This document shows positions 15,931 to 58,451 of a DNA stretch of 64,000 nucleotides, in pieces. The notes below the pieces were generated by a model. That model searched no databases, was not told the DNA's origin, and saw only the letters and a list, made by a program, of their open reading frames with translations. Both the position numbers and the translations under genes were made by a program. This DNA comes from a virus (Duplodnaviria > Heunggongvirae > Uroviricota > Caudoviricetes), in the IMG/VR virus record IMGVR_UViG_3300032315_001309, positions 12,305 through 76,304 of that record; one strand, given 5' to 3'. Numbering within the stretch: the stretch's first letter is position 1; the number at the start of each line of letters is the position of its first letter.

Positions 15931-15940
15931 ACAATTACTT

Positions 15941-17553: not shown

Positions 17554-17566
17554 CCTTGAATATTCT

Positions 17567-42763: not shown

Positions 42764-42799
42764 TAATTAGTGGACGGTTCGATAGCTGTCCACTAATTA
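42764..42799. promoter_or_regulatory. perfect 12-bp inverted repeat TAATTAGTGGAC-N12-GTCCACTAATTA
   Basis: Read directly. Lies in the 228-bp non-coding gap upstream of the helicase gene. A TTGACA-N17-TAGAGT promoter-like element sits around 42690-42720. Confidence 0.4.
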
Positions 42800-42851
42800 G
42801 CTGGTTCTAAAATAAATCGGTTATTATTATTTCATACTGATTCAATAATCA

Positions 42852-44084
42852 ATGACTTCTATCCTTCTTCGCCCACACCAAGGATCCGCTCTGGATTTGA
42901 TGGATATGTACGAAACTGGAAAGATTATTCTCCCAACCGGTTCCGGTAAGAGTATCGTTTTTATTCAGAATACTATTAATCAATTTGAACAGGAAACACC
43001 ACAGATTGTTTGTGTTGTTGCTCCTAGGTTGCTTCTTGCGTGTCAATTGTCTGCTGATTATGAACAGTATATCACTAACGCCAAATATCTACACGTTCAT
43101 TCTGGAAGTAAGCTAAAGCATTATCGCACCACCAATACTGCAGATATCGAAGAATGGTGTCGAATTCATAAAGATGAACATAGGCTAATTTTTACATCTT
43201 ATAATTCTCTACATAAGATTACTAATTCTTCTATCGACGTGAATACTTATCACTTTGATGAATGTCATAATTCTGTGAAGAAAAATTTCTTTCCACATAT
43301 TGAAACCGCAACAAAAAAGGCGAATAAAAAATATTTCTTCACTGCGACACCTAAAAACTCTAAAATTCCTACCAAAAAGCCTGGTATGAATATTCAAGAG
43401 GTTTATGGTCACACTATTTGTGATATTCCGATGACACAAATGGTCAAGAGTGGATATGTTCTACCTCCACTTGTGATTAAAAAGAAAGTCCATAATCTGA
43501 TGAATGACGATGAGCGCAATTGTGATCTGATTATCACAACTCTCGATGAACAAGCCCCATCTAAGGTTCTCATTGCAGCAAAATCCACTAAATCCATTAT
43601 CTCTTTGATTTCGGACACTGATTTTGTTACGCAACTACGTGATCGAGATTATCATATTTTACATATCACGGCTGCTCATGGTGCTTATATTGACGGTAAG
43701 CAAGTCAAGCGGGATGCATTCTTCCGTATATTGAATGAGTGGGGTCTAGATGATTCTAAAAAGTTTGTTCTTTTAAATTACTCGATTCTCTCTGAGGGTA
43801 TCAATTGCACTGGACTTGATTCTGTGATCTTTCTTCGCAATATGAATGTTATCGCTATGTGCCAAACTATTGGTCGCATCATTCGTCTACACAAGAAAGA
43901 TTCCGATAAGCTTGCTACTAATCAACTCGAAGTGGGTGATTATGACAACTACAAAAAGCCTTATGGTGTAGTTGTTCTTCCTGTTTATGATACTTACTCT
44001 GAGTCTATTGCTGATGCTGTAGAATCAGTGATTCATAAGTCGTTTGTTATGGGACAGACGGTCTCAGATGAAATCGAGAAGTGA
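42852..44084 (+). CDS. uvsW: UvsW-like DNA helicase (SF2)
   Basis: LRPHQ...ILPTGSGKS (motif I), FDECHN (DECH box) and TIGRIIRL (motif VI) parallel T4 UvsW (LNLPTSAGKS, DECH, TIGRVLR). 410 aa. Confidence 0.6.
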   Translation: MTSILLRPHQGSALDLMDMYETGKIILPTGSGKSIVFIQNTINQFEQETPQIVCVVAPRLLLACQLSADYEQYITNAKYLHVHSGSKLKHYRTTNTADIEEWCRIHKDEHRLIFTSYNSLHKITNSSIDVNTYHFDECHNSVKKNFFPHIETATKKANKKYFFTATPKNSKIPTKKPGMNIQEVYGHTICDIPMTQMVKSGYVLPPLVIKKKVHNLMNDDERNCDLIITTLDEQAPSKVLIAAKSTKSIISLISDTDFVTQLRDRDYHILHITAAHGAYIDGKQVKRDAFFRILNEWGLDDSKKFVLLNYSILSEGINCTGLDSVIFLRNMNVIAMCQTIGRIIRLHKKDSDKLATNQLEVGDYDNYKKPYGVVVLPVYDTYSESIADAVESVIHKSFVMGQTVSDEIEK

Positions 44085-44161
44085 CACTTCATTAACTGTC
44101 CACTATATTCACTAGGTTGCCACTGCTTGTGGTAGCCTATCTATATTATCAAGAAATCAAC

Positions 44162-45487
44162 ATGTTTAAAATCTCGGAAAATTCAAATCCAAATTATCTT
44201 GCTCAGATTGTAAGCCTGAAAAATATTCGACCACACCCAAATGCGGATCGACTTCAGCTATGTACAATTCAGGGAAATAATATTATTGTATCTCTAGATG
44301 CAAGTGAAGGGGATGTTTATATTTATTTTCCTCTAGAGTGTGCTATTAATAAAGAATATCTTTCTTGGTCGAATTCCTTTTCAGATAAAACTTTAAATCA
44401 AGACCAAGAAGAAGTTGGCTTTTTTAGTCATAAAGGTCGAGTTCGTGCTGTAAAACTCAGGGGAACCCCATCAGAAGGATATGCGATTCCCGCAGATAAA
44501 CTTCTACAATGGCTAAGTGAAAAGCTAGGTAAAAATATTACGTTAAATGAAAAGTGGATCAATCAGGAATTTGATACTTTTGATGGAATTCTTCTTTGTG
44601 AGAAGTATGTAAACCAAGTTCAACTTCGGTCACAGAAGAATCTGGAGAATAAAAAGAAAGGGAAGAAAGCTGTTGAATCGAAACTGCTTGCTGGGCAGTT
44701 CCACTTTCACATTGACACACCTCAACTTAAAAAACTGGTTTCACATATTTCACCTTCCGATTATATTTCTATTACTAAGAAGTATCACGGTACCAGTGCA
44801 GTTGTATCCAATATTCTTTGTTTCCGAAAACTCAATTGGTTTGAGAAACTTCTTAAGCGATTTGGCGTTAAAATTCAAGAATATGAATATGATCTTGTGT
44901 ACTCCAGCCGTAAAGTAATTAAAAATGGAAATCGACAAGACGATATTCAACATTATTATTCTTCAGATATTTGGGGTATTGCAGCTAAGTATGTTCAACC
45001 TAGCCTGGAACCTGGAATTACTCTATACATGGAAATTGTAGGTTTCGTGAATGGAGGTGGATATATTCAACGTGACTATGATTATGGTTGCGAACCAGGC
45101 AAGTATGATATCTACGTGTATCGAATCACACATACTGATCCAACTGGTCGAATTTTTGAATATTCCCCGGCACAAGTGGAAGAATACTGTAACCGAAAGG
45201 GTATCAAAGCAGTAGAAACATATTATTATGGTAAGGCTGGGGATCTATTTGATGTAGATGTAGAAAATCATTGGCATCAAAACTTCCTTCAAAAAATGTG
45301 TGAAACCTATCTAGAAAAAGATTGCAGTCTTTGTGCAAACAAAGTCCCTGATGAAGGAATTGTGCTTCGTCGGGATGTTCCGAATGATATTGATGTTTAC
45401 AAACTGAAATCATTCAAGTTTCTTATGAAAGAAACAGCACAACTCGATGACGAGAACTTTGTTGATATGGAATCAGCCGATATTTGA
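44162..45487 (+). CDS. RNA-ligase-like nucleotidyltransferase (Rnl2-type KxHGT motif)
   Basis: ITKKYHGTSAVV resembles ligase motif I of the Rnl2 family (KIHGTN in T4 Rnl2). There is an N-terminal extension of about 200 aa. The start could be ATG 44117 or ATG 44162 (MFKISEN...). Confidence 0.4.
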   Translation: MFKISENSNPNYLAQIVSLKNIRPHPNADRLQLCTIQGNNIIVSLDASEGDVYIYFPLECAINKEYLSWSNSFSDKTLNQDQEEVGFFSHKGRVRAVKLRGTPSEGYAIPADKLLQWLSEKLGKNITLNEKWINQEFDTFDGILLCEKYVNQVQLRSQKNLENKKKGKKAVESKLLAGQFHFHIDTPQLKKLVSHISPSDYISITKKYHGTSAVVSNILCFRKLNWFEKLLKRFGVKIQEYEYDLVYSSRKVIKNGNRQDDIQHYYSSDIWGIAAKYVQPSLEPGITLYMEIVGFVNGGGYIQRDYDYGCEPGKYDIYVYRITHTDPTGRIFEYSPAQVEEYCNRKGIKAVETYYYGKAGDLFDVDVENHWHQNFLQKMCETYLEKDCSLCANKVPDEGIVLRRDVPNDIDVYKLKSFKFLMKETAQLDDENFVDMESADI

Positions 45488-45491
45488 ATTT

Positions 45492-45743
45492 ATGAAAGAA
45501 AAGTATTTGACTACTAACCAAGTAGCCAAGATATTGGAAATTGACTCACCCGAAACAATTCACAATTGGTTAGAGGGTGGACAATTTCCAGGATCATTTT
45601 TAAATGATGAGGGATATTGGCAATTTCCTTTATATATTGTTGAATTGGTAAAATCACGTATGAATATTATTAAAAATTTAAACATCATAGGTGATATTTA
45701 TGTATCTGACATAAATGACGATTTTCAGCCACCTCTATCATAG
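45492..45743 (+). CDS. putative HTH DNA-binding protein (excisionase/MerR-like HTH_17)
   Basis: LTTNQVAKILEIDSPETIHNWLEGGQFPG fits the pattern helix, turn, helix, W, then G..P. The ATG at 45492 avoids overlap with the previous gene. Confidence 0.35.
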   Translation: MKEKYLTTNQVAKILEIDSPETIHNWLEGGQFPGSFLNDEGYWQFPLYIVELVKSRMNIIKNLNIIGDIYVSDINDDFQPPLS

Positions 45744-45836
45744 ATGTGCCACATAAAAAACTGTCCACTCGTGACCAAACCGCTTCAAAAATGACCTATT
45801 ATTGGTCTGTTCACCAAACAATACAACATCACACTT

Positions 45837-46184
45837 ATGGAACAAGTTACACCCACCATTCATTCTGCTACTGATTTTGCATACGACGAGTATGAAGAAG
45901 ATCTTTCAGTAATGGCCTATAATCGCGCCACTAAACAATGGGAAATGGCGGAACTATATGAAGTAGAAGATGGTATTTCACCATATACTCGCTTCTTTTT
46001 CGTTGATGAACTTCCCACTCCTAAGGAAGACTCTAAGTTTGATGCCGCCAAGGCCAAACTTGACGAAATGATCAATTGGATCAATCGGTGGTCTGTGAAG
46101 GCCCCTGCGGTAGATGAAGCCCTGAATGGCTTCAGGACTTCAATTCATGAAATCCTAGATCAAATTGAAGAGAGCCAGTCCTGA
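45837..46184 (+). CDS. hypothetical acidic protein
   Basis: 115-aa ORF. Confidence 0.35.
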   Translation: MEQVTPTIHSATDFAYDEYEEDLSVMAYNRATKQWEMAELYEVEDGISPYTRFFFVDELPTPKEDSKFDAAKAKLDEMINWINRWSVKAPAVDEALNGFRTSIHEILDQIEESQS

Positions 46185-46255
46185 AACTGGACTAAGTAAA
46201 CCAGATTCCGTTAATCCCTCTGCTATCCTAAACAGGTTAGTCGAGGGATTTTTCC

Positions 46256-46936
46256 ATGTCGGTATGTTTTATTTCTGATGTCCATTCTCAGTATGATAGA
46301 CTGCAGAAAGCAGTAGATTATGCAGAGAGCCAAAATCTTCAAATCATCTTTTTGGGTGATTTGTTTGACTCGCGGGTGGATTACTCCGACACTTTTGGCA
46401 CATTAAATCTAATGTATCGCTGTATCAAAAGTGGTCATCTTTGTGTAAACTCTAATCACCAAGATAAGCTTATTCGTTATCTGAAAGGAAATAAAGTTGT
46501 ACAGAACAATGGCCTAGAGGTAACCGTTCGCCAACTGGAAGAAAATCAAGTAAACAAAACTGATCTACTGAATTTTCTCTCTTCTTTTGCCTATGGGATT
46601 GTTTGTAAAAACTCTCACGGAAAACAATTTCGGGTAGCTCATGCATACTTTCCAAATTTCCTGAATGTAGCAAAAACTGATGAGGTTCAATTCTTTCATG
46701 GAGAAAATCTGAATCGCAAGGCCAAAAATCTAATGATCTATGGTCCGACTGATCGGGATAATCTCAGGACCTTTTGGTGGAATTCTGAGAACAACAGTCG
46801 TGATTATATTAAAGTTGCTGGACATTATCACACTGTTCATGTTGATGATCACTCTGTGATCATTGATAGTGGTTGTGGTAGTGGTGGTTGTCTTTCTCTC
46901 TATGTTGCGGACACTACTGTTATTAAGGAGTTTTGA
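46256..46936 (+). CDS. calcineurin-like metallophosphoesterase (lambda-PPase / ApaH / Pnkp-phosphatase-type)
   Basis: Motif order ISDVHS (DxH), then FLGDLFDSR (GDxxDR), then VNSNHQD (GNH[DE]-like). Confidence 0.6.
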   Translation: MSVCFISDVHSQYDRLQKAVDYAESQNLQIIFLGDLFDSRVDYSDTFGTLNLMYRCIKSGHLCVNSNHQDKLIRYLKGNKVVQNNGLEVTVRQLEENQVNKTDLLNFLSSFAYGIVCKNSHGKQFRVAHAYFPNFLNVAKTDEVQFFHGENLNRKAKNLMIYGPTDRDNLRTFWWNSENNSRDYIKVAGHYHTVHVDDHSVIIDSGCGSGGCLSLYVADTTVIKEF

Positions 46937-47413
46937 ATGAATTATAAAAAATTGGAACCCTTTAAGGATGTTTTGTTGTTGAATGCGGATTACAATCCAA
47001 TTTCAATCATCAAATGGCGAAGAGCGGTTGTACTTCTCATGAAGAATCGAGTGAAATTCATTTCAAAACGAGTAGTATGTCTTTTTACATATATTAAAAT
47101 CCCACATCATAGACTTCTGAGCGTTAGACCGACAAAAAATCTAATTAAAAAATTTTGTAACTATCAATGTAGTTATTGTGGATCCATCAAAGATCTAACA
47201 ATTGATCACATTATTCCACTATCTCGTGGTGGTCTTCATGCCTTTGAAAACTTGACTTGTGCATGTTTAAAATGCAATGCAGAAAAGGGAAACAGAACGC
47301 CTGAAGAATGGGGAAAGCCACTGTATGTCAAGACATACAAACCTTTCAGTAGATTAGAAATTATTCTCAAAACTTCTAAGGTTGATGAATGGCTTGATTA
47401 TGTCTACAACTGA
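46937..47413 (+). CDS. HNH endonuclease (McrA-like)
   Basis: CNYQCSYCG...LTIDHIIPLSRGGLHAFENLTCACLKCNAEKGN is an HNH motif with flanking Cys pairs. Confidence 0.65.
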   Translation: MNYKKLEPFKDVLLLNADYNPISIIKWRRAVVLLMKNRVKFISKRVVCLFTYIKIPHHRLLSVRPTKNLIKKFCNYQCSYCGSIKDLTIDHIIPLSRGGLHAFENLTCACLKCNAEKGNRTPEEWGKPLYVKTYKPFSRLEIILKTSKVDEWLDYVYN

Positions 47414-48694
47414 CCAGTCCTAAAACTGGCACACCCATTTCGTTTCAGGCCCACCTTAGACTATATAATACTAAAGCAAACAACAGAGGAACAATTGGAT
47501 CAGCAACAGAAATTTCTTTTCGACATTATTTCCCAACTTGAGGACTGTATCCTTGATGCAGAATTCGATCTTGGGTCCGATTCGGTTCTTTACCAAAAAC
47601 TAAAGGATCTTGTGGAAACTGTAGAAACGTATCAAGAAAATCTATGAAATTCAAGGAGATTTAGACATGCCAACAGTTCAGGGAATTCAAAAAATACATA
47701 TCACCGACGTTGAAATTTTTTCGGAAAATGAAAAATATTTTGTTCGCGTTGATTATTCCGATGGGGAATCCGACGAATTCGGCCCTTATCGGTCACATGA
47801 AGAAGCTAAGTCCATCGTCTTTTAAATCAAAAAACAAACCCATCGAAAAGGAGATTTTATGAAAGTACACACCATGGAAACCACCAAAACGGAAGAATTT
47901 CAAAATCTATATGATCTTCTCGATGAAAAAGAAAATGAAAAAGAACAGGAAAGGTATTACCCTGAATTTGACGACCAAACTTGATCACTGTACCAATTTT
48001 AAAACTGTCCACCCATGGCCAAAAAACTCAAAAAAGCTGATATGCTTGATGGATCAGAGCACCCCGTCAAGGAAACTCTGATTGATGACTTACTTGATAC
48101 GGGATTGTTTAAATCTCCAGTTCAAGAAGTCTTTTCTCCAGAACTACAACAGCTTCTGGATGAATTTTAATCAATATCCCATTATTTTTAAGTAAACTAT
48201 GTCTCGTGAAGAAGCTCTTGTTATTATTCGCTCAGGTAAAAATGGCACCCAAATTCTAGATCTTCTAGATAAAGTCGCCACTCTTTGCCCCACTGAATCT
48301 ACTGTTGACTCTGAATTTTCTGACGTAAAATTTAATGATTGATACTCTTTCATTTAACTATGGAAATCTGACTACCATTATTGGATTTGTCGGTATCGTT
48401 TCATCTTTGGTGATCGTTGTTACTGCTTTCACAAAGCATTACAACTCACCGGTCAATAAGTAAGACCACTCTCTGAACTGTCCATTAGCTCCTATCAATT
48501 CGCTTGGTGGGGGCTATACTTTTGAAGTTAACTCATTGAACAATGAAACACTATTCGGCCCACTCACATACAGAATTTTTTGAGACAGATGATCTTGAAG
48601 AAGCCAAAGATATTGCAATGTCTATGTGCGAGCACTTTGGGTCTGGCTATGTAATCGACAACACAAACAATCAAGTAGTTGAGGAATACTGAAC

Positions 48695-50272
48695 ATGATT
48701 TTAAATTTTAAAGTACCAAAGAATATTTACAATAAAATTGATGCGTATGATTTGGTAAAGCCAAAAGAAGAAAGGGCGGCCGCCAAGGCAAAAAAAGTCA
48801 ATACTTTTCCTAAGGCTGGACTTCCCGAACAACTGATTCCAGAATCAGTGATTCCAAAGACGGTGTTGATGGAAGCAATTAACCTTTTGAATATTCGACA
48901 CAATGATACTTATTGGTACGATTCTGGTAGTTTTGCTGGGACTCATGGAAACATTCAATATCTAATTACCAAGAAAGCTAATAAGTATTGGTCCGCTATT
49001 TGGTTTGATACTCAAAATTCTGATATTGTATTTGGATTCTCTCATTCTTTTCGAAATCTAAAATCATACAAGAATTATCGTTATAATTCATTCTTGAATG
49101 AAACTAAACTTGACGAAACAAAATTCACTTCCGTAAAGCACAATAAGAAAGATTACCTTTATTATAGCCAACTGGTTACACCATCCGATCTAATTGATCG
49201 AAAGTTTAATTGTGTAATCCCGGCATATAATCAACGAAACGAAACAGTAGCTTTCACCAACCTATTTAAAGCCCGACTAGGTAAATATACTTTAGTCTGG
49301 AGTAAAAGTAATAATGTTTTTGAAGCATATAATACACCACTATATGATCTTCTGGGTGTACGTGGAATTAAGGATCATAATTGGGTTCCTGATTTCAATT
49401 ATATTCTAAGTAAAGTTCCTGATGTTTTTTCCAAAAAAATCAACATTCCATACTTTCGACGTAAGTTGACTGCGATGTGCGATGATGCAGTGAAACAATA
49501 TCAATCAAGTGATTTTGATCGATATAAACTCAAATTCAGTACACGATCTATTGAGATTCTACAATGGATTGATCAGATTTACGATTGGACTGTACCTGTT
49601 GATTATCTACAGCAGGTATGGGAGGACCTAAAATTTGATGAAAATACTTCACAGTTTCGATATGTAAACACAAGTAATCACAATGTAGGCACTGAATGGC
49701 TTCGCCAGAATGTCCCGATTAAATCCTTTATCAACATGTTTGTTCGGGATTATTCGGTATTCATTGATACTATCTCGATGTTACGTGATATTCTGGGGCG
49801 GAATCCAGATCTTAAGTATAATGGTAGGTGGCGGGTACAGGAACTACACGACTGGGCCATGGCTGAGCAATGGAAACAAAGTAACAAAAATCAAAACCTA
49901 CCTCAGGATCTATTTCCGGCTCCATTGAAAGTCGATAATATGACTTTCATTCAACCAATCAACACTCACCAACTTGCTCAATGGGGTCGAGCAGCCCGAA
50001 ATTGTGTGGGATCCTCTTCATACTATAATGGAATCATTAAGCATAATCATTTCATTATTCTGGCTCTCTCTAAAAATGAACCATACCTAACTATTCAGGC
50101 TAGGTTGGAAGGTGAGGAACTAAAGGTGACTCAGATCAAGAAAACATGCAACGAAAGTCTGAGTTATACGGAAGAAGATGAATACCGAAAAGTATTCCAA
50201 AAAGCTCTTATTATTCGTAGTGCTCAACTAGCAGAGGAACCACAAGAAGTTGAACCAGTAGTGGAATCATGA
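48695..50272 (+). CDS. hypothetical protein with PcfJ-like C-terminal region
   Basis: 525 aa. The C-terminal QWGRAARNCVGSSSYYNGIIKHNHFIILALSKNEPYLTIQARL resembles the PcfJ-family core (WG..NCV.S..Y...). Confidence 0.35.
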   Translation: MILNFKVPKNIYNKIDAYDLVKPKEERAAAKAKKVNTFPKAGLPEQLIPESVIPKTVLMEAINLLNIRHNDTYWYDSGSFAGTHGNIQYLITKKANKYWSAIWFDTQNSDIVFGFSHSFRNLKSYKNYRYNSFLNETKLDETKFTSVKHNKKDYLYYSQLVTPSDLIDRKFNCVIPAYNQRNETVAFTNLFKARLGKYTLVWSKSNNVFEAYNTPLYDLLGVRGIKDHNWVPDFNYILSKVPDVFSKKINIPYFRRKLTAMCDDAVKQYQSSDFDRYKLKFSTRSIEILQWIDQIYDWTVPVDYLQQVWEDLKFDENTSQFRYVNTSNHNVGTEWLRQNVPIKSFINMFVRDYSVFIDTISMLRDILGRNPDLKYNGRWRVQELHDWAMAEQWKQSNKNQNLPQDLFPAPLKVDNMTFIQPINTHQLAQWGRAARNCVGSSSYYNGIIKHNHFIILALSKNEPYLTIQARLEGEELKVTQIKKTCNESLSYTEEDEYRKVFQKALIIRSAQLAEEPQEVEPVVES

Positions 50273-50661
50273 CATTTGAAAAGAATCTAGAGTACATTGA
50301 TGATAGAGTCAATGTACTGATTCGAGAAATTTGTGATGGGAATTGTGAGGTTATTGATGAATATCATCGACTAGTAAATCTTTATGCACATACGTGCCTA
50401 GAAGAAGAATCAAAATTTTTGATTCCTTCGTCTATCAATGGTATTAAACCAACTCTCACTAAAGATGCGATTAGATTAGATGAAGACGGAAACACAGTAA
50501 ATGTTCCACATAGTTTACGGTCTAAAGCATTTACATACAAGAAAACTACTGCAATGAAAATGATTACTGCCTGGTTAAAAAAACATGAGACAACTGAAAA
50601 TTGTCCAAATTCTTATCAGGACACTCTAAACATTCCATTTCAGCAAATCAAGCCAGTATAA
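50269..50661 (+). CDS. hypothetical protein
   Basis: 130-aa ORF overlapping the previous stop. Confidence 0.35.
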   Translation: MTFEKNLEYIDDRVNVLIREICDGNCEVIDEYHRLVNLYAHTCLEEESKFLIPSSINGIKPTLTKDAIRLDEDGNTVNVPHSLRSKAFTYKKTTAMKMITAWLKKHETTENCPNSYQDTLNIPFQQIKPV

Positions 50662-50730
50662 AAACTGGCACTTTGACAACCAGATTTCATTTGTCACACC
50701 TCTATAATAGGTACACTAAACCAATTTATT

Positions 50731-51009
50731 ATGATTTCCCTACCCAATCTAGATACCGATACAGATATTGTTCTTGACACTGAACTTGATGCTGAATATG
50801 GTGGTGATATCACTGTCACTTTGACGTATGTAGAGCATGATGTTCTAAATGATATTATCAATAGTGCTCTTGATGCTATTCAACTTATTGCACCTTATGG
50901 TAGTGGTCTAACACATCTACCACTAGATAATGAGATTATTCAACGTATCTCTACTATTGATAATCTTAAGGAACGATTTGACGCTCTATGGGCCAGTCGC
51001 TTTCTTTGA
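50731..51009 (+). CDS. hypothetical acidic protein
   Basis: 92-aa ORF. Confidence 0.3.
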   Translation: MISLPNLDTDTDIVLDTELDAEYGGDITVTLTYVEHDVLNDIINSALDAIQLIAPYGSGLTHLPLDNEIIQRISTIDNLKERFDALWASRFL

Positions 51010-51055
51010 GGTGAGTCCAATAAACAAGTTTAATATCATTTAATGTATAAAATAA

Positions 51056-51331: not shown

Positions 51332-51355
51332 CCTGGACGAAATGTCCTATAAAAA

Positions 51356-51961: not shown

Positions 51962-52233
51962 AATCAATGAAAAAAATACTTGAGGGGTTACGAAACTGCC
52001 GAAGTAATTTCCAACAATGGAAATACCTTATTTCTTATAAAAATTATAATGATTATGAGCATTGGATATTTTTTAACTATATCAACGGGACCGAAAATAT
52101 TGAGCCATACAGAATTGTATTGTCTTCTGAAAATTATGATGCTTTAATTGAAATGTTAAATACCCCACCTGATCTTGCGGTGGTTGATAATTTAAAAGAA
52201 TTTATGAGCCGACCTTCACCGTGGGACACTTGA
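51958..52233 (+). CDS. hypothetical protein
   Basis: 91-aa ORF. Confidence 0.3.
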   Translation: MKSMKKILEGLRNCRSNFQQWKYLISYKNYNDYEHWIFFNYINGTENIEPYRIVLSSENYDALIEMLNTPPDLAVVDNLKEFMSRPSPWDT

Positions 52234-52291
52234 AAAACTGGCACACAAATTCTAAAACACCCTCCATATACCCTATACTACTTTTGTACAA

Positions 52292-52474
52292 TTGAAAGCC
52301 TACATGAAATTAACAACCAAAAAAGAGTTTAATTTATCCCTATCTGAATATGAAGCTACACAATTAAGAAACTTTATACGTGATTGTAAAGTTTGGGATA
52401 ATACTGAAATGAAAGGAAAAGAGTATTACATCACGGTTATTGAATTGTGGAATTCTTTAAAGGCTGAAGAGTAA
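52292..52474 (+). CDS. hypothetical protein
   Basis: 60-aa ORF. Confidence 0.3.
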   Translation: MKAYMKLTTKKEFNLSLSEYEATQLRNFIRDCKVWDNTEMKGKEYYITVIELWNSLKAEE

Positions 52475-52920: not shown

Positions 52921-53144
52921 TGAGGTGATTATTTATGTTAGCTAGAACTCTTTCACTATTAGCCGGACTTGGAATTATATTCACAGTTCTGGTTATTCGA
53001 GGAATTCCTATTCTTCTACTTGCTAAGGGTGCATTTCTCTTAGTTCTTCTACTTGTTGCTGTGGTGCTAATCGCAACCTCATTTTCAAGTGATTCCTGAT
53101 TCAATTATTCAAATTATTCAAACTATTCAATTACTTAAATTATT

Positions 53145-53966
53145 ATGAGCACTACTGGTAAACTAATTCTCGGCGGCGTTGGCGTATTTCTTGCCGTCAC
53201 TCTTGTTGGCGGCAACTTCACCACGATTCAAACTGGTGAAAATGGACTCTATAAGAGTTTCGATGGTAAGATCTCTGAGCAGGTTCTACAGCCTGGTATC
53301 AACTGGGATGGTCTTGGTTCTATTCAGACTTTCAACACCCGTAAGATCACTGTTAATGCAAATGATCTGAAGCCTAAGACAAAAGATAACACCATTATGA
53401 AAGAAATGGATGTTACTGTCACCTACTCTATCTCTCCCACATCCCTGTTCGGTTTCTATACCGGATATGATATCTCTAATCATGGAGTTACTCAAAATGG
53501 GCAGATTCAGTTGATGGCCGCATACATTCAACGTCTAATCACATCTTCCGTTAACCAATCCGTTGATGAATTCCCTGCTCTGGAAGTCAACTCCAAGCTG
53601 GAAAACATTCAGGATGCTATCAAGGCCAACCTGACGGCTGCTCTTGAGAAGAATGGTCTGGCTGGTAAAATCACCATTGATTCTGTAATCGTTGGTAAAG
53701 CCGATCTTCCTGATTCTCTGGTTGCTTCTGTTAACCGAGTTGTTGTTGCTCAGTCTGCATTCAAGGAACAGGAACAACGTACCCTTACTGCTGAAAGTAA
53801 GGCTAAGGAAAATGCGGCTCTTGCTGCTACTGTTACTGAAAAATCTATTGAGTACAAGCGACTTGAAATCATGGAGAAATTTGTTGATAATCCCAACATC
53901 AAGTGGGGTATCATCAATGGCGCCAAGATGGACTTCATGCCTGGTGGTATGGTAGGCGATAAGTGA
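53145..53966 (+). CDS. SPFH/band-7 (stomatin/prohibitin/HflKC-like) domain membrane protein
   Basis: An N-terminal TM helix is followed by IQTGENGLYKSFDGKISEQVLQPGINW, which is typical of the SPFH domain start, then a coiled-coil-like Ala-rich C-terminus. Confidence 0.5.
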   Translation: MSTTGKLILGGVGVFLAVTLVGGNFTTIQTGENGLYKSFDGKISEQVLQPGINWDGLGSIQTFNTRKITVNANDLKPKTKDNTIMKEMDVTVTYSISPTSLFGFYTGYDISNHGVTQNGQIQLMAAYIQRLITSSVNQSVDEFPALEVNSKLENIQDAIKANLTAALEKNGLAGKITIDSVIVGKADLPDSLVASVNRVVVAQSAFKEQEQRTLTAESKAKENAALAATVTEKSIEYKRLEIMEKFVDNPNIKWGIINGAKMDFMPGGMVGDK

Positions 53967-53972
53967 TAATGC

Positions 53973-54016
53973 ACCAGGTGGCAGGCTAAAACTGCCACCT
54001 GGTCTTAATAATTTAT
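53973..54016 (+). terminator. stem-loop terminator candidate (12-bp GC-rich stem ACCAGGTGGCAG/CTGCCACCTGGT)
   Basis: Perfect inverted repeat with a 7-nt loop, directly after the SPFH gene, followed by an A/T-rich stretch. The loop-stem junction carries the AAAACTGCCAC motif. Confidence 0.4.
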
Positions 54017-54020
54017 TACT

Positions 54021-54230
54021 ATGACACCCGAAAGATACCAAGAAATCCAAACATTCCTCAATTATATTCGTTCAAATCCGTTTGGAATTCGTCTAGACCG
54101 ACAGTATAATTATGAATTTAAAAGAGAAAAGCCAACCTGGTCAACTAATGTAGTGTACCGTATGATGACACAACCAGGCCGATATGATTCTGATGTTTTG
54201 AATTACTTACGTGGAGCATTTATAAAATGA
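54021..54230 (+). CDS. hypothetical protein
   Basis: 69-aa ORF. Confidence 0.3.
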   Translation: MTPERYQEIQTFLNYIRSNPFGIRLDRQYNYEFKREKPTWSTNVVYRMMTQPGRYDSDVLNYLRGAFIK

Positions 54231-54384
54231 TTAAAATCTTTGAAAAGAGCTATGACGGAGAATCACTCTACGATCTCCAAAGGGATGCGGGAGAGGCAGT
54301 GAGTGAAGAATATAATGACAAAATGCAACAACTTCCAGTAGATCAGTATGGATTTACTGCTGGTATGTTCAAAGTAACTATCGA

Positions 54385-54837
54385 GTGGACACTATGAAAC
54401 AACTAGTAACTTATGCATCGCATGTAGAAGATCCCACTGCATATGCATTCATGGTCTTTGATTCTATCGAAGACACTGAGAAGTTCTTCCGAACCGCACA
54501 GATCTATTTTGAAATGTATCCTGGTGATACTCTCCAAACTATCTACCTAACTAGTGATAAGTTTGTAGAATATACCAACTACATGAAATTCAGGAATGAT
54601 TTTGAAGTAAAGAATATTTCCAATGAACAGTATCAAACATTGAAGGCTGTATTCACTGGCGAATGTAGCAATCATGGAGCATGTGGAGAATTTGGACATA
54701 CTCAGGTCTTTGATATTATCGAATGTTTCGGTAATCTTCCATACGAAGAGAAACCAGAACTGGTTAAAGAGTTGACTGACTTATATCCCGAATGTGATCT
54801 TGCACTTTCTGGTGAAGATGGCGTCTACATCACATAA
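54385..54837 (+). CDS. hypothetical Cys/His-containing protein
   Basis: 150 aa. Contains GECSNHGACGEFGH, a possible metal site. Confidence 0.35.
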   Translation: MDTMKQLVTYASHVEDPTAYAFMVFDSIEDTEKFFRTAQIYFEMYPGDTLQTIYLTSDKFVEYTNYMKFRNDFEVKNISNEQYQTLKAVFTGECSNHGACGEFGHTQVFDIIECFGNLPYEEKPELVKELTDLYPECDLALSGEDGVYIT

Positions 54838-54907
54838 TTTTTGACTAAATAAACACAAGACCAGAAAATAGATTTCTGGCATATTACACTAAAGGAGCTT
54901 TAGTACC

Positions 54908-55933
54908 ATGATTAAAAAAAAGTTTGACACCATTGTTTTTATTGGTAGATTTCAACCATTACACAATGCACACGTAGCTACAATAAAGAAAGCATATAGT
55001 CTTGCTGATCAAGTATTGATTGTAATTGGTTCCGCAGGAGAACCTAGCACATATAAGAATCCTCTATCAGCGGAACAGCGAGAGGATATTTTGATCTATG
55101 CAATGGCAGATATCGATATTCCAGAACAAGATTATAAGATCATTCACCAGGAAGATTGTCTCTATAGTAATCTTAAATGGTTTACTGAGATTCAAGATAA
55201 AATTACAAAACATACCAAGCCCACTGATAATATTGGAATTATCGGGTATGAGAAGGATAGCAGTAGTTTTTATCTCAAGGGATTTCCACAATGGGAATAC
55301 ATTGAAATGCCATTAGTAGAACATCTGAGTTCTACTGATATTCGGACTCTTTACTTTGTTGAATATCCAAATCTCAAATTCATTAAAGGTGTAATTCCTA
55401 AAGCAACCTTTGAGTTTCTTGAGGATAATTTAAACACCAGTTTCAGGACAAACATCGTAAAAGAACGAAGGTTTGTTGAGAACTATAAAAAACCATATGT
55501 GAATCTCCCATATCCTCCGATTTTCGTAACGACAGATGCCGTAGTTTTCCAATCGGGTCATGTTCTAATGATTCGCAGGAAGGCTTTCCCAGGAAATGGT
55601 CTACTCGCTTTACCTGGAGGATTTGTAAATGCAAATACTGATAAATCTCTTGAAGATGCTATGCTCAGGGAGTTGCGAGAGGAAACTAAGATTAAAGTTC
55701 CGCCCGCAGTTCTTAGAAGTAGTATCACTTCATCCCACGTATTTGATGCTATTGAACGAAGCACTAGAGGAAGAACTATCACTCATGCATTCAATATTGT
55801 TCTGAATGAACCAGAATTACCTAAACTAAGGGCGAGTTCCGATGCATCTGATGCAATGTGGATTCCGATTAGTCAAATCAAAAGAAGTGAGTGTTATGAA
55901 GATCATTATCATATCATTTCCTACTTTATCTAA
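54908..55933 (+). CDS. bifunctional NMN adenylyltransferase / Nudix hydrolase (NadM-Nudix, NatV-like)
   Basis: The N-terminal IVFIGRFQPLHNAH is a nucleotidyltransferase (H/T)xGH motif. The C-terminal GGFVNANTDKSLEDAMLRELREETKIKV is a Nudix box. Confidence 0.75.
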   Translation: MIKKKFDTIVFIGRFQPLHNAHVATIKKAYSLADQVLIVIGSAGEPSTYKNPLSAEQREDILIYAMADIDIPEQDYKIIHQEDCLYSNLKWFTEIQDKITKHTKPTDNIGIIGYEKDSSSFYLKGFPQWEYIEMPLVEHLSSTDIRTLYFVEYPNLKFIKGVIPKATFEFLEDNLNTSFRTNIVKERRFVENYKKPYVNLPYPPIFVTTDAVVFQSGHVLMIRRKAFPGNGLLALPGGFVNANTDKSLEDAMLRELREETKIKVPPAVLRSSITSSHVFDAIERSTRGRTITHAFNIVLNEPELPKLRASSDASDAMWIPISQIKRSECYEDHYHIISYFI

Positions 55934-55945
55934 TTATTATTAAAA

Positions 55946-56476
55946 ATGAAACAATTTACAGAACAAAATTTTCTAGAAAAATATAATCAATATGTATTTT
56001 TCTATGGTGGATTTCTTTCCAATTGGGCAAATACACACTTTTTGGATACTCGCTCAGGAACACCATATAACTGCACGGAACAGTATATGATGGAGAAAAA
56101 GGCGTTGCTCTTTCATGATTATGAAATTGCTAAACGTATTATGACTAAGACTTTTCCTGGTGACCAAAAAGCACTAGGGCGAAAAGTAAAAGGATTTGAC
56201 AAATCTTTGTGGGATCAACACGCCAGGCAAATTGTTTACGAAGGTTGTTATTACAAATTCACTCAAAATGAAGATGCTTATAACTATCTAATGGAAACTA
56301 ACGGATATCTTCTTGTAGAAGCCTCTCCCACTGATACTGTATGGGGAGTTGGAATGGGTGGTTATGAGAAAGAAATTGAAGATCCTAAAAACTGGAAAGG
56401 AACTAATTGGTTGGGTCAAGTTCTTACTCAACTACGAGAAGATATTATAGGTAAACCAGAATTAATAATGTTCTGA
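55946..56476 (+). CDS. NADAR-domain protein (YbiA/DUF1768 family)
   Basis: FFYGGFLSNWANTHF...EQYMMEKKALLFHD...LGRKVKGFDKSLW...LLVEASPTDTVWGVGMG matches the NADAR pattern. Confidence 0.6.
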   Translation: MKQFTEQNFLEKYNQYVFFYGGFLSNWANTHFLDTRSGTPYNCTEQYMMEKKALLFHDYEIAKRIMTKTFPGDQKALGRKVKGFDKSLWDQHARQIVYEGCYYKFTQNEDAYNYLMETNGYLLVEASPTDTVWGVGMGGYEKEIEDPKNWKGTNWLGQVLTQLREDIIGKPELIMF

Positions 56477-56695
56477 TTATGAAAGTTCATACTACAGAAT
56501 TAGTTAAAAAAATTCTAGCTAACCCATCAGCACAAAAACAATTACAATAAGCTCTAACTAACCCAAATCAATGTATAGAACTTGATGGTAAAATATATGA
56601 GCTTGTAAAAGTTTGACAGATGTAAAGTCATTAAAACATGAAGACCTTCGGATAGACTGAAGGCAATTAAAAATCACTAAAGGAGATTTAGTACA

Positions 56696-58084
56696 ATGAA
56701 CAGCAACATTATTCTCAATACTGACTCTTACAAATACAGTCAGTTCAATCAATATCCACCAAATACAGAAATCGTATCTTCCTACATTGAAAGTAGGGGG
56801 GCTAAAGGTGGATTCTATGACAGAACCGTATTCTTCGGTTTGCAGATGTTTCTGAAAGAATATCTTTCCAAACCTATTACTCTAGATCAAATCAACGAAG
56901 CAGAAGAAATCGTTAATGCTCACGGACTTCCATTTAATCGTGCAGGATGGGAATACATCCTCAAACAATATGGTGGATTTCTTCCTCTATGCATTCGTGC
57001 AGTAAAAGAAGGTTCCATTATTCCTACTAAAAATCTTCTGGTTTCTGTAAAAAATACTGATCCAAATTGCGCATGGTTGACTTCTTTTATGGAGACAGCT
57101 ATTCTTCGTGCTGTATGGTATCCTACCACCGTAGCCACATATTCGTGGTACATGAAGCAACTGATTCTACATTCTCTGAAAAGAAATGGTACTCCAGAAT
57201 CTATTGATTTCAAACTACATGACTTCGGATTCCGTGGCGTATCTTCTAAGGAATCTGCTGGTATTGGTGGACTAGCTCACCTAGTCAACTTTCAAGGCAC
57301 TGATACCATGGAGGCCCTACTGTATGGTAGGAGGTACTACAATGCCCCTATGGCAGGTTTTAGCATCCCAGCCACAGAACACAGTACAATCACCTCCTGG
57401 GGGCGTATGGGGGAGGCTGATGCATATGAAAACTTCCTGAATAAGTATGCCCAAGAAGGAAAGATCATCGCATGTGTTAGTGATAGCTACAACATCTATG
57501 ATGCATGTTCTAAGATCTGGGGAGAGCAACTGAAGCAGAAAGTTATTAGTTCTGGTGCTACTCTTGTGATTCGTCCCGATAGTGGATATCCACCAGAAGT
57601 TGTTATGGAATGCCTACACATTCTTGATGCTAAGTTCGGACACACTATCAACAATAAAGGATACAAAGTTCTGAATAATGTTCGTCTTATTCAGGGTGAC
57701 GGAGTTTCTTATGAAATTGTTGGTAACATTCTAAGCAGAATGGATACTGCCGGATTCTCTGCTGATAATATTGCATTCGGTCAAGGCGGCGGACTACTAC
57801 AGGCACATGATAGGGATACACTGAAGTTTGCTATGAAGTGCTCTGCTATCCTTGTGGATGGTGAATGGCGTGATGTGTACAAGCAACCTATCACTGATAT
57901 GGGTAAAGAATCCAAGAAAGGATTGATTGACCTTTACAAAATCGATGGTGAGTATGTCACTAAACGTATTGATGATCATGAAAACCCAGCGAGCGAAACT
58001 CAAATGGTTTTTTATAATGGTATTATGTATAACAGCACCAACTTAGAGACGGTTCGCAAACTGGCACAGTCTATGAGCGTCTGA
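56696..58084 (+). CDS. nadV: nicotinamide phosphoribosyltransferase (NAMPT/NadV)
   Basis: NTDSYKYSQF, HDFGFRGVSS, GTDTMEAL and STIPATEHST are characteristic NAMPT motifs. 462 aa. Confidence 0.8.
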   Translation: MNSNIILNTDSYKYSQFNQYPPNTEIVSSYIESRGAKGGFYDRTVFFGLQMFLKEYLSKPITLDQINEAEEIVNAHGLPFNRAGWEYILKQYGGFLPLCIRAVKEGSIIPTKNLLVSVKNTDPNCAWLTSFMETAILRAVWYPTTVATYSWYMKQLILHSLKRNGTPESIDFKLHDFGFRGVSSKESAGIGGLAHLVNFQGTDTMEALLYGRRYYNAPMAGFSIPATEHSTITSWGRMGEADAYENFLNKYAQEGKIIACVSDSYNIYDACSKIWGEQLKQKVISSGATLVIRPDSGYPPEVVMECLHILDAKFGHTINNKGYKVLNNVRLIQGDGVSYEIVGNILSRMDTAGFSADNIAFGQGGGLLQAHDRDTLKFAMKCSAILVDGEWRDVYKQPITDMGKESKKGLIDLYKIDGEYVTKRIDDHENPASETQMVFYNGIMYNSTNLETVRKLAQSMSV

Positions 58085-58302
58085 CTCTGAGAGTGCTACT
58101 ATATATTAGTAGTTGAGAGATTTTTCTCAAATCACCCAAAAATTTTAAATACTAAATAAATACAGCTAATCAATTAATTATTATGGCCAATTATTACGAC
58201 TGGGATCTCATTCAAAAAAATGATTGGGATTTTATTAAAAAGAATGATTGGGAGATACTTTCTCTGGGAATGTAAGTTATATTTACATAACCAATACCGA
58301 AG

Positions 58303-58336
58303 AGAGTTCAATCCCACAAAGATTGAACTCTTTTTT
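58303..58336 (+). terminator. rho-independent terminator (11-bp stem AGAGTTCAATC/GATTGAACTCT + T6)
   Basis: Perfect inverted repeat with a 7-nt loop and a TTTTTT run, upstream of the tRNA island. Confidence 0.6.
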
Positions 58337-58451
58337 ATGATTAGCTTATGACACTATCTCAACTGTCCATTACTACAACATCCTCTTCAAAAATCGGGTA
58401 TTGTATAGAAGTGATTGAGAAATCAACAGAACCTTGACAATTTAAACTTTT

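What the first reader, a model, noticed from the sequence alone, without database searches (positions are those of the whole stretch)
42786..58370. Recurrent post-stop-codon motif AAAACTG(T/G)CCAC/T, often forming the 3' arm of a small hairpin
Copies of aaaactgtccac or aaaactggcac occur at: 14953-14961 (AAACTGGCC, within a TTGACA-N17-TAAGAT promoter), 42786-42793, 44094-44103, 45767-45778, 47422-47432, 48001-48012, 48475-48485, 50661-50671, 52234-52244, 53988-53998 and 58361-58370. Almost all lie 0-25 nt after a stop codon in the small-gene accessory region. In several cases (14948-14961, 42764-42799, 47415-47430, 50651-50670, 53973-54003) the ACTGG/CTGCC/GTCCAC part pairs with an upstream CCAGT/GGCAG/GTGGAC, giving a hairpin whose loop is the A-run. 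This looks like a family of phage-specific intergenic elements: a promoter-early stem-loop (PeSL) type modular junction, an RNA processing site or a regulator binding site.
Basis: seen in the sequence. Interest (0 to 1): 0.55.

Follow-up and report, generated by a model that had tools for sequence, protein, structure and literature searches.

The report
Upstream half of cyanophage early-type promoters
The repeated AAAACTG(T/G)CCAC motif is the upstream part of a two-part promoter that this freshwater cyanobacterial virus places before many small genes. The same design occurs in marine relatives and very probably matches a published early-gene element, so it is real but not new.

Summary
The motif is real. 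However, it is not a post-stop-codon hairpin, terminator or RNA processing site.

**What it is**
- It is the better-conserved right arm of a 22-24 bp imperfect inverted repeat: G-M-C-A-S-T-T-N4-A-A-S-T-G-K-C(C)-A-C-A.
- This repeat lies at a fixed distance upstream of a TATAAT-like -10 box. The -10 box starts 37-39 nt after the A of ACTG.
- Only one of the 13 copies has a -35 box.

**Where it occurs**
- The window is about 97-98% identical to the freshwater Synechococcus phages B3/B23 and holds 13 copies, all on the + strand.
- Each copy lies 20-35 nt upstream of a small gene or a tRNA cluster and abuts the previous stop codon.
- B23 has about 43 copies, 41 of them in its 17-118 kb small-gene region.
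- The same architecture occurs in Syn9, P-TIM40, S-SSM7, S-SKS1, S-PRM1, S-WAM1 and many uncultivated viral contigs. It is absent from 50 kb of T4.

**Why it is a DNA site**
- The two arms show no compensatory changes.
- Most copies do not fold.
- This points to duplex DNA read by a dimeric protein centred near -53.

**Prior work**
It very likely equals the 'novel early-gene regulatory element' of Doron et al. 2016, a paper I could not open. The binding factor remains unknown.

The parts
33832..33889 (+). Promoter element: TGGACAGT-TCACAT-ACTGTCCAT, 29-nt spacer, -10 box TATTAT (33884-33889).
   Evidence: PWM score 20.3 and -10 box at offset 38. The arms form a perfect 8-bp inverted repeat. 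Orthologue in B23 at 17250.
42668..42726 (+). Weak variant element: GTGACAGT-TATTGA-ATCGTCACA, then TTGACA-N17-TAGAGT. It is the only copy with a consensus -35 box and is the first of two tandem promoters upstream of the helicase gene.
   Evidence: PWM score 13.1. The -35 box matches 6 of 6 at spacing 17. Sequence.
42771..42827 (+). Element: TGGACGGT-TCGATA-GCTGTCCAC, 28-nt spacer, -10 box TATTAT. The helicase gene starts at 42852.
   Evidence: Equivalent elements lie upstream of the helicase homologue in Syn9, S-SSM7 and S-PRM1.
44081..44138 (+). Element: GTGACACT-TCATTA-ACTGTCCAC, 29-nt spacer containing a stem-loop, -10 box TAGCCT. An alternative TATATT lies at 44142-44147. The gene starts at 44162.
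   Evidence: PWM score 25.8. Coordinates. The left arm overlaps the helicase stop codon.
45746..45802 (+). Element: GTGCCACA-TAAAAA-ACTGTCCAC, 28-nt spacer, -10 box TATTAT. The gene starts at 45837.
   Evidence: PWM score 27.1.
47411..47469 (+). Element: TGACCAGT-CCTAAA-ACTGGCAC, 31-nt spacer, -10 box TATAAT. The gene starts at 47495.
   Evidence: PWM score 27.7.
47990..48046 (+). Element: GTACCAAT-TTTAAA-ACTGTCCAC, 28-nt spacer, -10 box TATGCT. The -10 box lies inside the listed ORF 48015-48170.
   Evidence: PWM score 22.9.
48463..48520 (+). Element: AGACCACT-CTCTGA-ACTGTCCAT, 29-nt spacer with a 12-bp stem that includes G-U pairs, -10 box TATACT. The gene starts at 48543.
   Evidence: PWM score 19.8. 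Spacer fold -15.7 kcal/mol, z -4.7.
50650..50708 (+). Element: AAGCCAGT-ATAAAA-ACTGGCAC, 31-nt spacer, -10 box TATAAT. The gene starts at 50731.
   Evidence: PWM score 27.2.
52223..52279 (+). Element: GGGACACT-TGAAAA-ACTGGCAC, 29-nt spacer, -10 box TATACT. It is followed by a 185-nt stretch that in B23 is only 38 nt.
   Evidence: PWM score 30.9, the best in the window. Junction with B23 at 52289.
58046..58107 (+). Element inside the 3' end of the nicotinamide phosphoribosyltransferase gene: GAGACGGT-TCGCAA-ACTGGCAC. The -10 box is TACTAT (58097-58102) or TATATT (58102-58107).
   Evidence: PWM score 25.1. Sequence. The gene stop is at 58084.
58348..58404 (+). Element: ATGACACT-ATCTCA-ACTGTCCAT, 28-nt spacer, -10 box TATTGT. 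It lies upstream of the tRNA cluster that starts at 58452.
   Evidence: PWM score 19.0. tRNA at 58452-58524.
61341..61397 (+). Element: GGTCCAAT-CTAAAA-ACTGACAC, 29-nt spacer with a hairpin, -10 box TATGAT. The gene starts at 61393-61419.
   Evidence: PWM score 18.5. Diverged orthologue in B23 at 48131.

Best explanation
**What it is.** The motif is the promoter-proximal arm of a 22-24 bp imperfect inverted repeat. The consensus is (GT)G-M-C-A-S-T-T-N4-A-A-S-T-G-K-C(C)-A-C-A. This repeat forms the upstream element of a two-part promoter. A TATAAT-like -10 box starts 37-39 nt after the A of ASTG. The intervening 28-31 nt vary in sequence but not in length, and there is normally no -35 box.

**What it drives.** About a dozen such promoters in the window, and about 43 in the related B23 genome, drive rightward transcription. 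Their targets are the small genes of unknown function and the tRNA genes.

**Shown.**
- The architecture.
- Its statistical significance.
- Its placement before genes.
- Its conservation across cyanomyovirus genera.
- The lack of selection for base pairing between the arms.

**Inferred.**
- The element works as double-stranded DNA.
- It is bound by a dimeric protein centred near -53 that recruits or stabilises host RNA polymerase in place of a -35 contact.
- These are the early promoters of T4-like cyanophages, that is, the 'novel regulatory element' of Doron et al. 2016.

**Unknown.** The binding protein has not been identified. It could be a host factor or a protein delivered with the virion.
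For: **Spacing to the -10 box**
- In B23 the best -10-like hexamer starts 37-39 nt after ACTG in 17 of 20 ACTGGCAC sites and 9 of 13 ACTGTCCA sites.
- The same test at random window positions, over five offsets, succeeds 9% of the time.

**Count in the window**
- There are 10 two-part matches on the + strand. Shuffles give a mean of 0.5 and a maximum of 3, and the - strand has 1.

**Position relative to genes**
- The next ATG-initiated ORF mostly starts 20-35 nt after the -10 box.
- The left edge of the element typically lies within -12 to +10 nt of the preceding stop codon.
- 65% of B23 sites have a gene start within 10-70 nt, against 15% of random positions.

**Distribution in B23**
- 41 of 43 sites lie between 17 and 118 kb, all on the + strand. 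The structural and replication modules have almost none.

**Conservation across phages**
- The same architecture is found in Syn9 upstream of gp55, gp63, gp68, gp75, gp78 and gp79.
- S-SSM7 has 13-14 copies in the 20-kb locus, all within about 11 kb. S-SKS1, S-PRM1 and S-WAM1 also carry it, as does P-TIM40.
- An IMG/VR scan seeded only with the right arm plus the -10 box recovered the unseeded left arm. C at -10 is present in 138, A at -9 in 130 and T at -7 in 125 of 152 matches.
- T4 positions 1-50 kb give 0 hits.

**A DNA site, not a hairpin**
- The register of the inverted repeat is specific: 69% of cells pair, against 26-39% when the register is slid.
- There is no covariation: 69.1% paired against 70.0% in shuffles.
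- The M/K and S/S positions vary independently.

**Two promoter classes**
- Syn9 also has a separate class of TTGAC-N17-TATAAT promoters at other genes.
- The window has one at 14.9 kb.
- This matches the split between early and middle (host-like) promoters stated in the abstract of Doron et al. 2016, which I cite from my own knowledge.
Against: - No transcript data were available, so start sites and timing are inferred.
- The Doron 2016 paper is not held. Identity with its motif is therefore unverified.
- No binding protein was identified:
  - The HTH protein next to one copy occurs only in B3/B23.
  - The conserved cyanophage AbrB/MazE-like protein is not detectable in B23.
- A centre near -53 is an unusual position for an activator.
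- One copy (47990-48046) would start transcription inside a listed ORF.
- One copy (58046-58107) lies inside a coding region.
- Between the window and B23, the arms are not significantly more conserved than the spacers: 2.8-4.5% against 6.6% differences, on small counts.
Confidence: 0.75

Rival explanations
1. Operator for temporal shut-off. The inverted repeat is bound by a phage-encoded dimeric repressor, or a middle-mode activator made after infection. In that case it controls when these promoters are switched off or on, rather than being needed for immediate-early initiation.
For: - Dyad symmetry without covariation fits any dimeric DNA-binding protein.
- A related CCAGT-N6-ACTGG palindrome sits directly on the -35 box of a sigma70-like promoter at 14940-14961, a typical repressor position.
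- Small DNA-binding proteins are encoded in these regions: an HTH_17 protein in the window and an AbrB/MazE-like protein in 321 cyanophage records.
Against: - A site at -42 to -65 does not overlap the -10 or -35 regions, so simple occlusion is unlikely.
- The strict spacing to the -10 box argues for a contact with RNA polymerase.
- Neither candidate protein is shared by all phages that carry the element.
Confidence: 0.15
2. PeSL-type cassette. The element is a composite promoter-terminator unit whose main evolutionary role is to provide repeated homology for modular gene shuffling in the hyperplastic region.
For: - The copies are dense and co-oriented between small genes of unknown function.
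- Some spacers hold strong hairpins, a few followed by T runs, for example B23 101413 and 99162 and S-SSM7 9128.
- Some junctions between the window and B23 fall at or just after an element: 52289, and B23 42239.
Against: - The defining sigma70 -35/N17/-10 promoter is absent in 12 of 13 copies.
- Only 2 of 6 window spacers, 5 of 28 B23 spacers and 5 of 13 S-SSM7 spacers fold significantly.
- No insertion was found flanked by two copies.
- Whether junctions and elements coincide more often than chance was not tested statistically.
Confidence: 0.07
3. RNA-level element. The arms pair in the upstream transcript and form a 3' hairpin that terminates, stabilises or marks the mRNA for processing.
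For: - Four copies in the window fold better than shuffles: 42764 at -20.3, 33829 at -12.2, 50647 at -9.7 and 47408 at -6.4 kcal/mol.
- The element directly follows stop codons.
Against: - Six of the ten family copies that were folded do not fold.
- There are no compensatory changes across 36 sites from four phages.
- There is no U run after the arms.
- Conservation is by sequence and differs between the two arms.
- Strict spacing to a downstream -10 box has no role in an RNA 3'-end element.
Confidence: 0.03

Closest known systems
Early-gene regulatory element of T4-like cyanophages (Doron et al. 2016, ISME J 10:1437; Syn9 and P-TIM40)
   Same: - Found in Syn9 and P-TIM40 upstream of clustered small genes.
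- Unlike host sigma70 promoters.
- Conserved and abundant across T4-like cyanophages and in uncultivated viral contigs.
- Coexists with a separate class of host-like -35/-10 promoters.
   Different: - I could not read the paper, so the published logo was not compared.
- The window's phage is a freshwater B3/B23-type virus. Its variant has ACTG rather than AGTG/GGTG in the right arm.
- It has two subtypes, ACTGGCAC and ACTGTCCAC.
- It lacks the weak -35-like GTTG seen in S-SSM7.
PeSL (promoter-early stem-loop) cassettes of RB49/phi1, T4/PST and KVP40/nt-1 (Arbiol 2010; Comeau 2014)
   Same: - Repeated, co-oriented intergenic promoter units that begin at the stop codon of the previous gene.
- Concentrated in hyperplastic regions in front of genes of unknown function.
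- Some copies carry a stem-loop between the upstream element and the -10 box.
   Different: - PeSLs have a sigma70 -35 box at N17 and an AT-rich upstream region. Here the -35 box is missing and the upstream region is a G+C-containing inverted repeat.
- The stem-loop is optional here.
- Mini-circle formation or shuffling was not shown.
T4 middle promoters (MotA box at -30 plus a -10 box, sigma appropriation by MotA/AsiA)
   Same: A phage promoter in which a factor-specific upstream box replaces the -35 element and is combined with a sigma70-type -10 box.
   Different: - The box here is a dyad centred near -53, not a 9-bp box at -30.
- No TGCTT box is present.
- Cyanophages lack motA and asiA (stated in PMC5780444).
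Activator-dependent cyanobacterial promoters without a -35 box (for example NtcA-activated, GTA-N8-TAC centred at -41.5)
   Same: A dimer-type palindromic site at fixed spacing upstream of a TAN3T -10 box, with no -35 box.
   Different: - The sequence is different. No GTA-N8-TAC occurs in any copy.
- The centre lies about one helical turn further upstream.

Membership tests
T4-like cyanophage early-promoter element (Doron 2016) | Present upstream of clustered small genes in Syn9 and in P-TIM40 | tested here: met
   Found in Syn9 upstream of gp55, gp63, gp68, gp75, gp78 and gp79. P-TIM40 has 3 copies in 1.5 kb of its 53.5-55 kb region.
T4-like cyanophage early-promoter element (Doron 2016) | Conserved and abundant among T4-like cyanophages and in environmental viral sequence | tested here: met
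   Found in seven cultured phage lineages. At least 120 IMG/VR stretches matched, and the unseeded left arm is conserved in them. Absent from T4 positions 1-50 kb.
T4-like cyanophage early-promoter element (Doron 2016) | Not a host-like sigma70 -35/-10 promoter | tested here: met
   The best -35 match at spacing 16-18 is 2-3 of 6 in 12 of 13 window copies.
T4-like cyanophage early-promoter element (Doron 2016) | Lies directly upstream of mapped transcription start sites of early-class genes | not testable with these tools
   No transcript data were available. Placement 20-35 nt upstream of start codons is consistent with this.
T4-like cyanophage early-promoter element (Doron 2016) | Sequence matches the published logo | not testable with these tools
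   The paper is not held. No secondary source quoted the sequence.
PeSL cassette | Sigma70-like promoter with -35 and -10 boxes at N17 | tested here: not met
   Only the copy at 42668-42726 has TTGACA-N17. Definition taken.
PeSL cassette | Stable stem-loop that acts as a terminator or attenuator within the cassette | tested here: inconclusive
   Spacer hairpins with z below -2 occur in 2 of 6 window copies, 5 of 28 B23 copies and 5 of 13 S-SSM7 copies. Terminator activity was not tested.
PeSL cassette | Preferential location in hyperplastic regions upstream of genes of unknown function | tested here: met
   41 of 43 B23 copies lie in the 17-118 kb small-gene region.
PeSL cassette | Association with insertion, deletion or replacement junctions between close relatives | tested here: inconclusive
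   Two or three of about eight junctions between the window and B23 abut an element. No statistical test was made and no flanking duplicate copies were seen.
Intrinsic terminator or structured RNA | Base pairing maintained by compensatory changes; stem followed by a U run | tested here: not met
   Covariation equals that of shuffles. Six of ten family copies do not fold. There is no Rfam match.
Sigma54 promoter (TGGCAC-N5-TTGC) | A -12 TTGC element 4-6 nt after the TGGCAC -24 element | tested here: not met
   None of the 13 copies has it.
NtcA site or T4 MotA box | GTA-N8-TAC, or (A/T)(A/T)TGCTT about 12 nt before the -10 box | tested here: not met
   None of the 13 copies has either.

The most novel reading that the evidence does not exclude
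The element may be the operator of an as yet unidentified dimeric transcription factor that substitutes for -35 recognition at a centre near -53. This factor would be a host protein shared by freshwater and marine picocyanobacteria, or a protein injected with the phage DNA. The idealised 24-bp palindrome TGTG(A/C)CA(C/G)T-N6-A(C/G)TG(G/T)CACA, with the same T....A preference in the spacer, also recurs in many Acidobacteriota genomes and in several filamentous cyanobacteria. The phages may therefore have adopted the DNA specificity of a widespread but uncharacterised bacterial regulator family. That would give a direct handle for finding the missing early-transcription factor.
Probability: 0.2. 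Interest if true: 0.7.

Novelty: new member of a known kind. Interest (0 to 1): 0.35.

Why it matters
T4-like cyanophages lack the MotA/AsiA system of T4, and how they start their infection programme is only partly understood.

**What this analysis adds**
- A precise anatomy of the promoter class: dyad half-sites, a fixed 37-39 nt offset to the -10 box, no -35 box, and an optional hairpin in the spacer.
- Evidence that a freshwater, subarctic lineage (B3/B23-like) uses the same element as marine Syn9 and P-TIM40. This implies a factor conserved across picocyanobacteria.

**Practical uses**
- The model allows promoters, and probably expression timing, to be annotated for about 40 genes of unknown function per genome.
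- It flags likely mis-called start codons.
- It identifies phage contigs hidden in bacterial genome records.
- It provides a defined 24-bp bait for isolating the binding protein.

Tried and rejected
**Literature**
- The Doron 2016 paper is not held by DOI or PMC id.
- Six text searches and ten secondary papers gave no description of the motif sequence. One search for the sequence strings themselves was wasted on unrelated hits.
- The B3/B23 genome announcement says nothing about promoters.

**Known RNA families**
- The Rfam gathering scan found only tRNAs.

**Candidate binding proteins**
- The HTH_17-like protein at 45492-45743 is restricted to B3/B23.
- The homologue of the small gene next to phoH (13939-14184) has no Pfam match.
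- The AbrB/MazE-like protein conserved in 321 cyanophage records is not detectable in B23 or the window.

**Host sites**
It returned mainly Acidobacteriota, a few filamentous cyanobacteria and mis-binned phage contigs.
- It returned no clear chromosomal site in a picocyanobacterium.
- Clustering of neighbouring genes found no adjacent regulator.

**Conservation between the window and B23**
- There are too few substitutions for a significant contrast between the arms and the spacer.

**Known motifs considered and rejected**
- Sigma54, NtcA and MotA boxes are absent.
- CRP-type (TGTGA-N6-TCACA), LexA, CIRCE and LysR T-N11-A geometries do not fit the spacing. This last point rests on my own comparison, not on a tool result.


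Full report
**Identity of the window.** Positions 42600-50500 are 97% identical to Synechococcus phages B23 and B3, which are 244-kb cyanomyoviruses of the family Kyanoviridae. Nearly the whole window aligns to B23 at 95-98%, interrupted by a handful of indels and replaced cassettes. B3 and B23 were isolated from a subarctic freshwater lake on a Synechococcus-Cyanobium host. Their genome announcement does not discuss promoters. I fetched the whole B23 genome so that many more copies could be studied.

**Check of the observation.** Ten of the eleven listed coordinates are correct. The copy given as 45767-45778 is really at 45757-45768. The short core alone is only modestly over-represented in the window: 14 against 5.4 expected. 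It is, however, strongly strand-biased and clustered. In B23, ACTGGCAC occurs 20 times on the + strand and 2 on the - strand, and ACTGTCCA occurs 13 and 4 times. Nearly all copies lie between 17 and 122 kb.

**The decisive feature: fixed spacing to a -10 box.**
- The motif is the right arm of an imperfect inverted repeat. The left arm, G-(A/C)-C-A-(C/G)-T-T, lies 6 nt upstream of A-(C/G)-T-G-(G/T)-C(C)-A-C-A.
- A TATAAT-like hexamer starts 37-39 nt after the A of ACTG in 17 of 20 ACTGGCAC sites and 9 of 13 ACTGTCCA sites. The same test at random positions succeeds 9% of the time.
- In the window, core plus a -10 box at that spacing occurs 10 times on the + strand. 500 dinucleotide shuffles give a mean of 0.50 and a maximum of 3, and the - strand has 1.

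**Copies in the window.** A position weight matrix built from B23 finds 13 copies in the window.
- 14953 sits on the -35 box of a separate TTGACA-N17-TAAGAT promoter.
- 53988 is part of a strong unrelated hairpin.

**Placement relative to genes.**
- The next ATG-initiated ORF usually starts 20-35 nt after the -10 box.
- The left edge of the repeat usually lies within -12 to +10 nt of the previous stop codon.
- 65% of B23 sites have a gene start within 10-70 nt, against 15% of random positions.

This explains the 'post-stop-codon' impression. The genes are tightly packed, so each promoter begins where the previous gene ends. Two copies precede tRNA genes: 58348-58404 in the window and 110473 in B23. 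In B23, 41 of 43 high-scoring copies lie in the 17-118 kb block of small hypothetical genes, all on the + strand. The structural and replication modules have almost none.

**Hairpin or DNA site?** I aligned 36 sites from B23, Syn9, S-SSM7 and S-SKS1 and tested the arms as a helix.
- 69.1% of cells pair, against 70.0 +/- 1.3% when partners are shuffled among sequences.
- The covariation score is 0.042, against 0.053 in shuffles.
- Sliding the register drops pairing to 26-39%. The dyad consensus is therefore real, but nothing maintains pairing.
- The two variable positions change independently. At -8/+1 the pairs are G-C 11, C-C 9 and G-G 8. At -11/+4 they are C-G 14 and A-G 14.
- Of the ten family copies folded as RNA, four fold better than shuffles and six do not.

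This is the pattern of a protein-binding dyad in duplex DNA, not of a selected RNA or DNA hairpin.

**The spacer.** Its length is conserved but its sequence is not. A minority of spacers contain a strong hairpin: z below -2 in 2 of 6 window copies, 5 of 28 B23 copies and 5 of 13 S-SSM7 copies. A few are followed by a T run, for example B23 99162 and 101413 and S-SSM7 9128. An optional terminator-like structure can therefore be lodged inside the promoter, but it is not a defining part. A -35 box is absent. The best match to TTGACA at spacing 16-18 is 2-3 of 6 in 12 of 13 window copies. The exception is 42668-42726, which has a perfect TTGACA-N17. That copy and the S-SSM7 copies, which carry a weak GTTG, show where the -35 box would lie. 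They place the right arm at about -42 to -50 and the dyad centre near -53. The sigma54 -12 element, NtcA sites and MotA boxes are all absent.

**Conservation in other phages.**
- Syn9 shows the same architecture upstream of gp55, gp63, gp68, gp75 (helicase), gp78 and gp79. An example is GTGCCAGT-tgaatga-AGTGTCCAC-N28-TATTCT.
- In 20-kb loci around the helicase homologue, S-SSM7 has 13-14 copies, S-SKS1 has 4, S-PRM1 has 3 and S-WAM1 has 2.
- A contig labelled Nonlabens xiamenensis that carries three copies is 98% identical to cyanophage P-TIM40.
- The helicase gene carries the element upstream in the window, Syn9, S-SSM7 and S-PRM1.
The unseeded left arm was recovered at the predicted positions. 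G at -12 is present in 98, A or C at -11 in 134, C at -10 in 138, A at -9 in 130, C or G at -8 in 125 and T at -7 in 125 of 152 matches. This is an independent, non-circular confirmation.
- T4 positions 1-50 kb give no hit on either strand.

**Relation to published work.** From my own knowledge, the abstract of Doron et al. 2016 (ISME J 10:1437) states three things. A novel regulatory element controls early-gene transcription in Syn9 and P-TIM40. Host-like promoters drive middle genes. These elements are abundant and conserved among T4-like cyanophages.

I could not open the paper and found no secondary source that quotes the motif. What I see fits that description.
- Syn9 has two clearly separate promoter classes: the dyad class at clustered small genes, and TTGAC-N17-TATAAT promoters elsewhere.
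- The window likewise has a host-like promoter at 14.9 kb, in front of the exonuclease gene.

I therefore regard the element as very probably the known early-promoter element, here in a freshwater lineage and with lineage-specific variants: ACTG instead of AGTG, two subtypes, and no -35 remnant. PeSLs are defined by a sigma70 promoter plus a stem-loop terminator (Arbiol 2010 and Comeau 2014). They are an analogy in layout and genomic location, not the same family.

**Mechanism.**
- *Shown:* a two-part cis-element with strict spacing, gene-proximal placement, strand and region bias, dyad symmetry without covariation, and conservation across genera.
- *Inferred:* a dimeric protein binds the repeat and contacts RNA polymerase bound at the -10 box, replacing -35 recognition. 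The class is early.

Who binds it is unknown.
- The HTH_17-like protein encoded at 45492-45743 is confined to B3/B23.
- An AbrB/MazE-like 54-residue protein (P-TIM40 gp091, Syn9 gp92) is conserved in 321 cyanophage records but is not detectable in B23.
It returned mostly Acidobacteriota, some filamentous cyanobacteria and mis-binned phage contigs. It returned no clear picocyanobacterial chromosomal site and no conserved neighbouring regulator.

A shut-off operator role cannot be excluded. It may also coexist with activation.

**Modular shuffling.** Several junctions between the window and B23 lie at or just after an element. Examples are 52289, where the element itself is highly diverged while the upstream gene is 97% identical, and B23 42239. 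No insertion is flanked by two copies, and no statistical test was made. This remains a suggestion only.

**Verdict.** The hairpin and RNA-processing reading is rejected, the regulator-site reading is supported, and PeSL is only an analogy. Novelty is low to moderate: a new, freshwater member of a promoter class that has very probably already been described. The added value is a sharper anatomy and a concrete route to the unknown factor.

Noticed in passing
window 53973-54003: A strong 12-bp-stem hairpin, CACCAGGTGGCAG-GCTAAAA-CTGCCACCTGGT (-24.8 kcal/mol, z -5.6), lies just after the stop codon at 53966. It is not a member of the promoter family. It has no clear T run and lies inside a cassette (53936-54826) that is replaced by different sequence in B23.
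   Followed up: partly
window 14940-15000: A CCAGT-N6-ACTGG palindrome is centred on the -35 box of a host-like TTGACA-N17-TAAGAT promoter. The -10 box of that promoter is bracketed by an 11-bp inverted repeat, GGCCTTTTTGT/ACAAAAAGGCC. The site lies exactly at a junction where B23 carries about 860 extra bp (its gp384), between phoH and the exonuclease gene.
   Followed up: partly
window 45492-45743: An 83-residue protein has a helix-turn-helix match (Pfam HTH_17, 25.7 bits, just under the cut-off of 27). By tblastn it is found only in B3 and B23. It may be a lineage-specific regulator.
   Followed up: partly
window 41178-41313 (B23 24576-28950): The window lacks about 4.4 kb that B23 has inside its very large gp21 gene. 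The corresponding ORF in the window is 496 residues (40699-42189).
   Followed up: no
window 45780-45796, 48024-48040, 58382-58398; B23 33397, 88758: Promoters of the ACTGTCCAC subtype share an extra TCAAAAAT-like stretch ending 5-6 nt upstream of the -10 box. The ACTGGCAC subtype lacks it. The family therefore has at least two subclasses.
   Followed up: no
window 47990-48170: The predicted -10 box of the element at 47990-48046 lies inside the listed ORF 48015-48170. Either the start codon of that ORF (annotated in B23 as gp32) is wrong or this promoter serves the next gene.
   Followed up: no
L014-L133 (genome-contig scan): The idealised 24-bp palindrome TGTG(A/C)CA(C/G)T-N6-A(C/G)TG(G/T)CACA is common in Acidobacteriota genomes, such as Terracidiphilus, Pyrinomonadaceae and Bryobacteraceae. 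The spacer there is non-random (TTTCGAAA-like). The palindrome often lies 42-43 nt upstream of genes for small secreted or outer-membrane proteins. It looks like the operator of an uncharacterised regulon.
   Followed up: partly
L025 (NZ_RMVE01000006.1), L023 (JBJBBP010000001.1), L072 (NHFO01000063.1), L044, L032: Several records filed as bacterial genomes appear to be cyanophage DNA. A 188-kb contig of the 'Nonlabens xiamenensis' assembly is 98% identical to P-TIM40. A 194-kb contig of a Synechococcus MAG and a Flavobacteriales TMED113 contig each carry multiple copies of the element. The TMED113 contig also has a cyanophage-type helicase.
   Followed up: partly
L134 3990-4154 (P-TIM40 gp091); Syn9 53843-54016 (gp92): A 54-57 residue AbrB/MazE/SpoVT-like protein is encoded at the end of the small-gene region. 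It is conserved in 321 Synechococcus and Prochlorococcus phage records but is not detectable in B23 or the window. It is a candidate regulator in marine cyanomyoviruses.
   Followed up: partly
L010 (S-SSM7) 7793-18839: In S-SSM7 the whole promoter of about 70 nt is repeated almost word for word: element, GTTG, spacer ending in CACTGCCC, TATAAT, and a leader ACATAACAAACA. Many of its spacers are long perfect hairpins. This is much more uniform than in B23 or Syn9.
   Followed up: no
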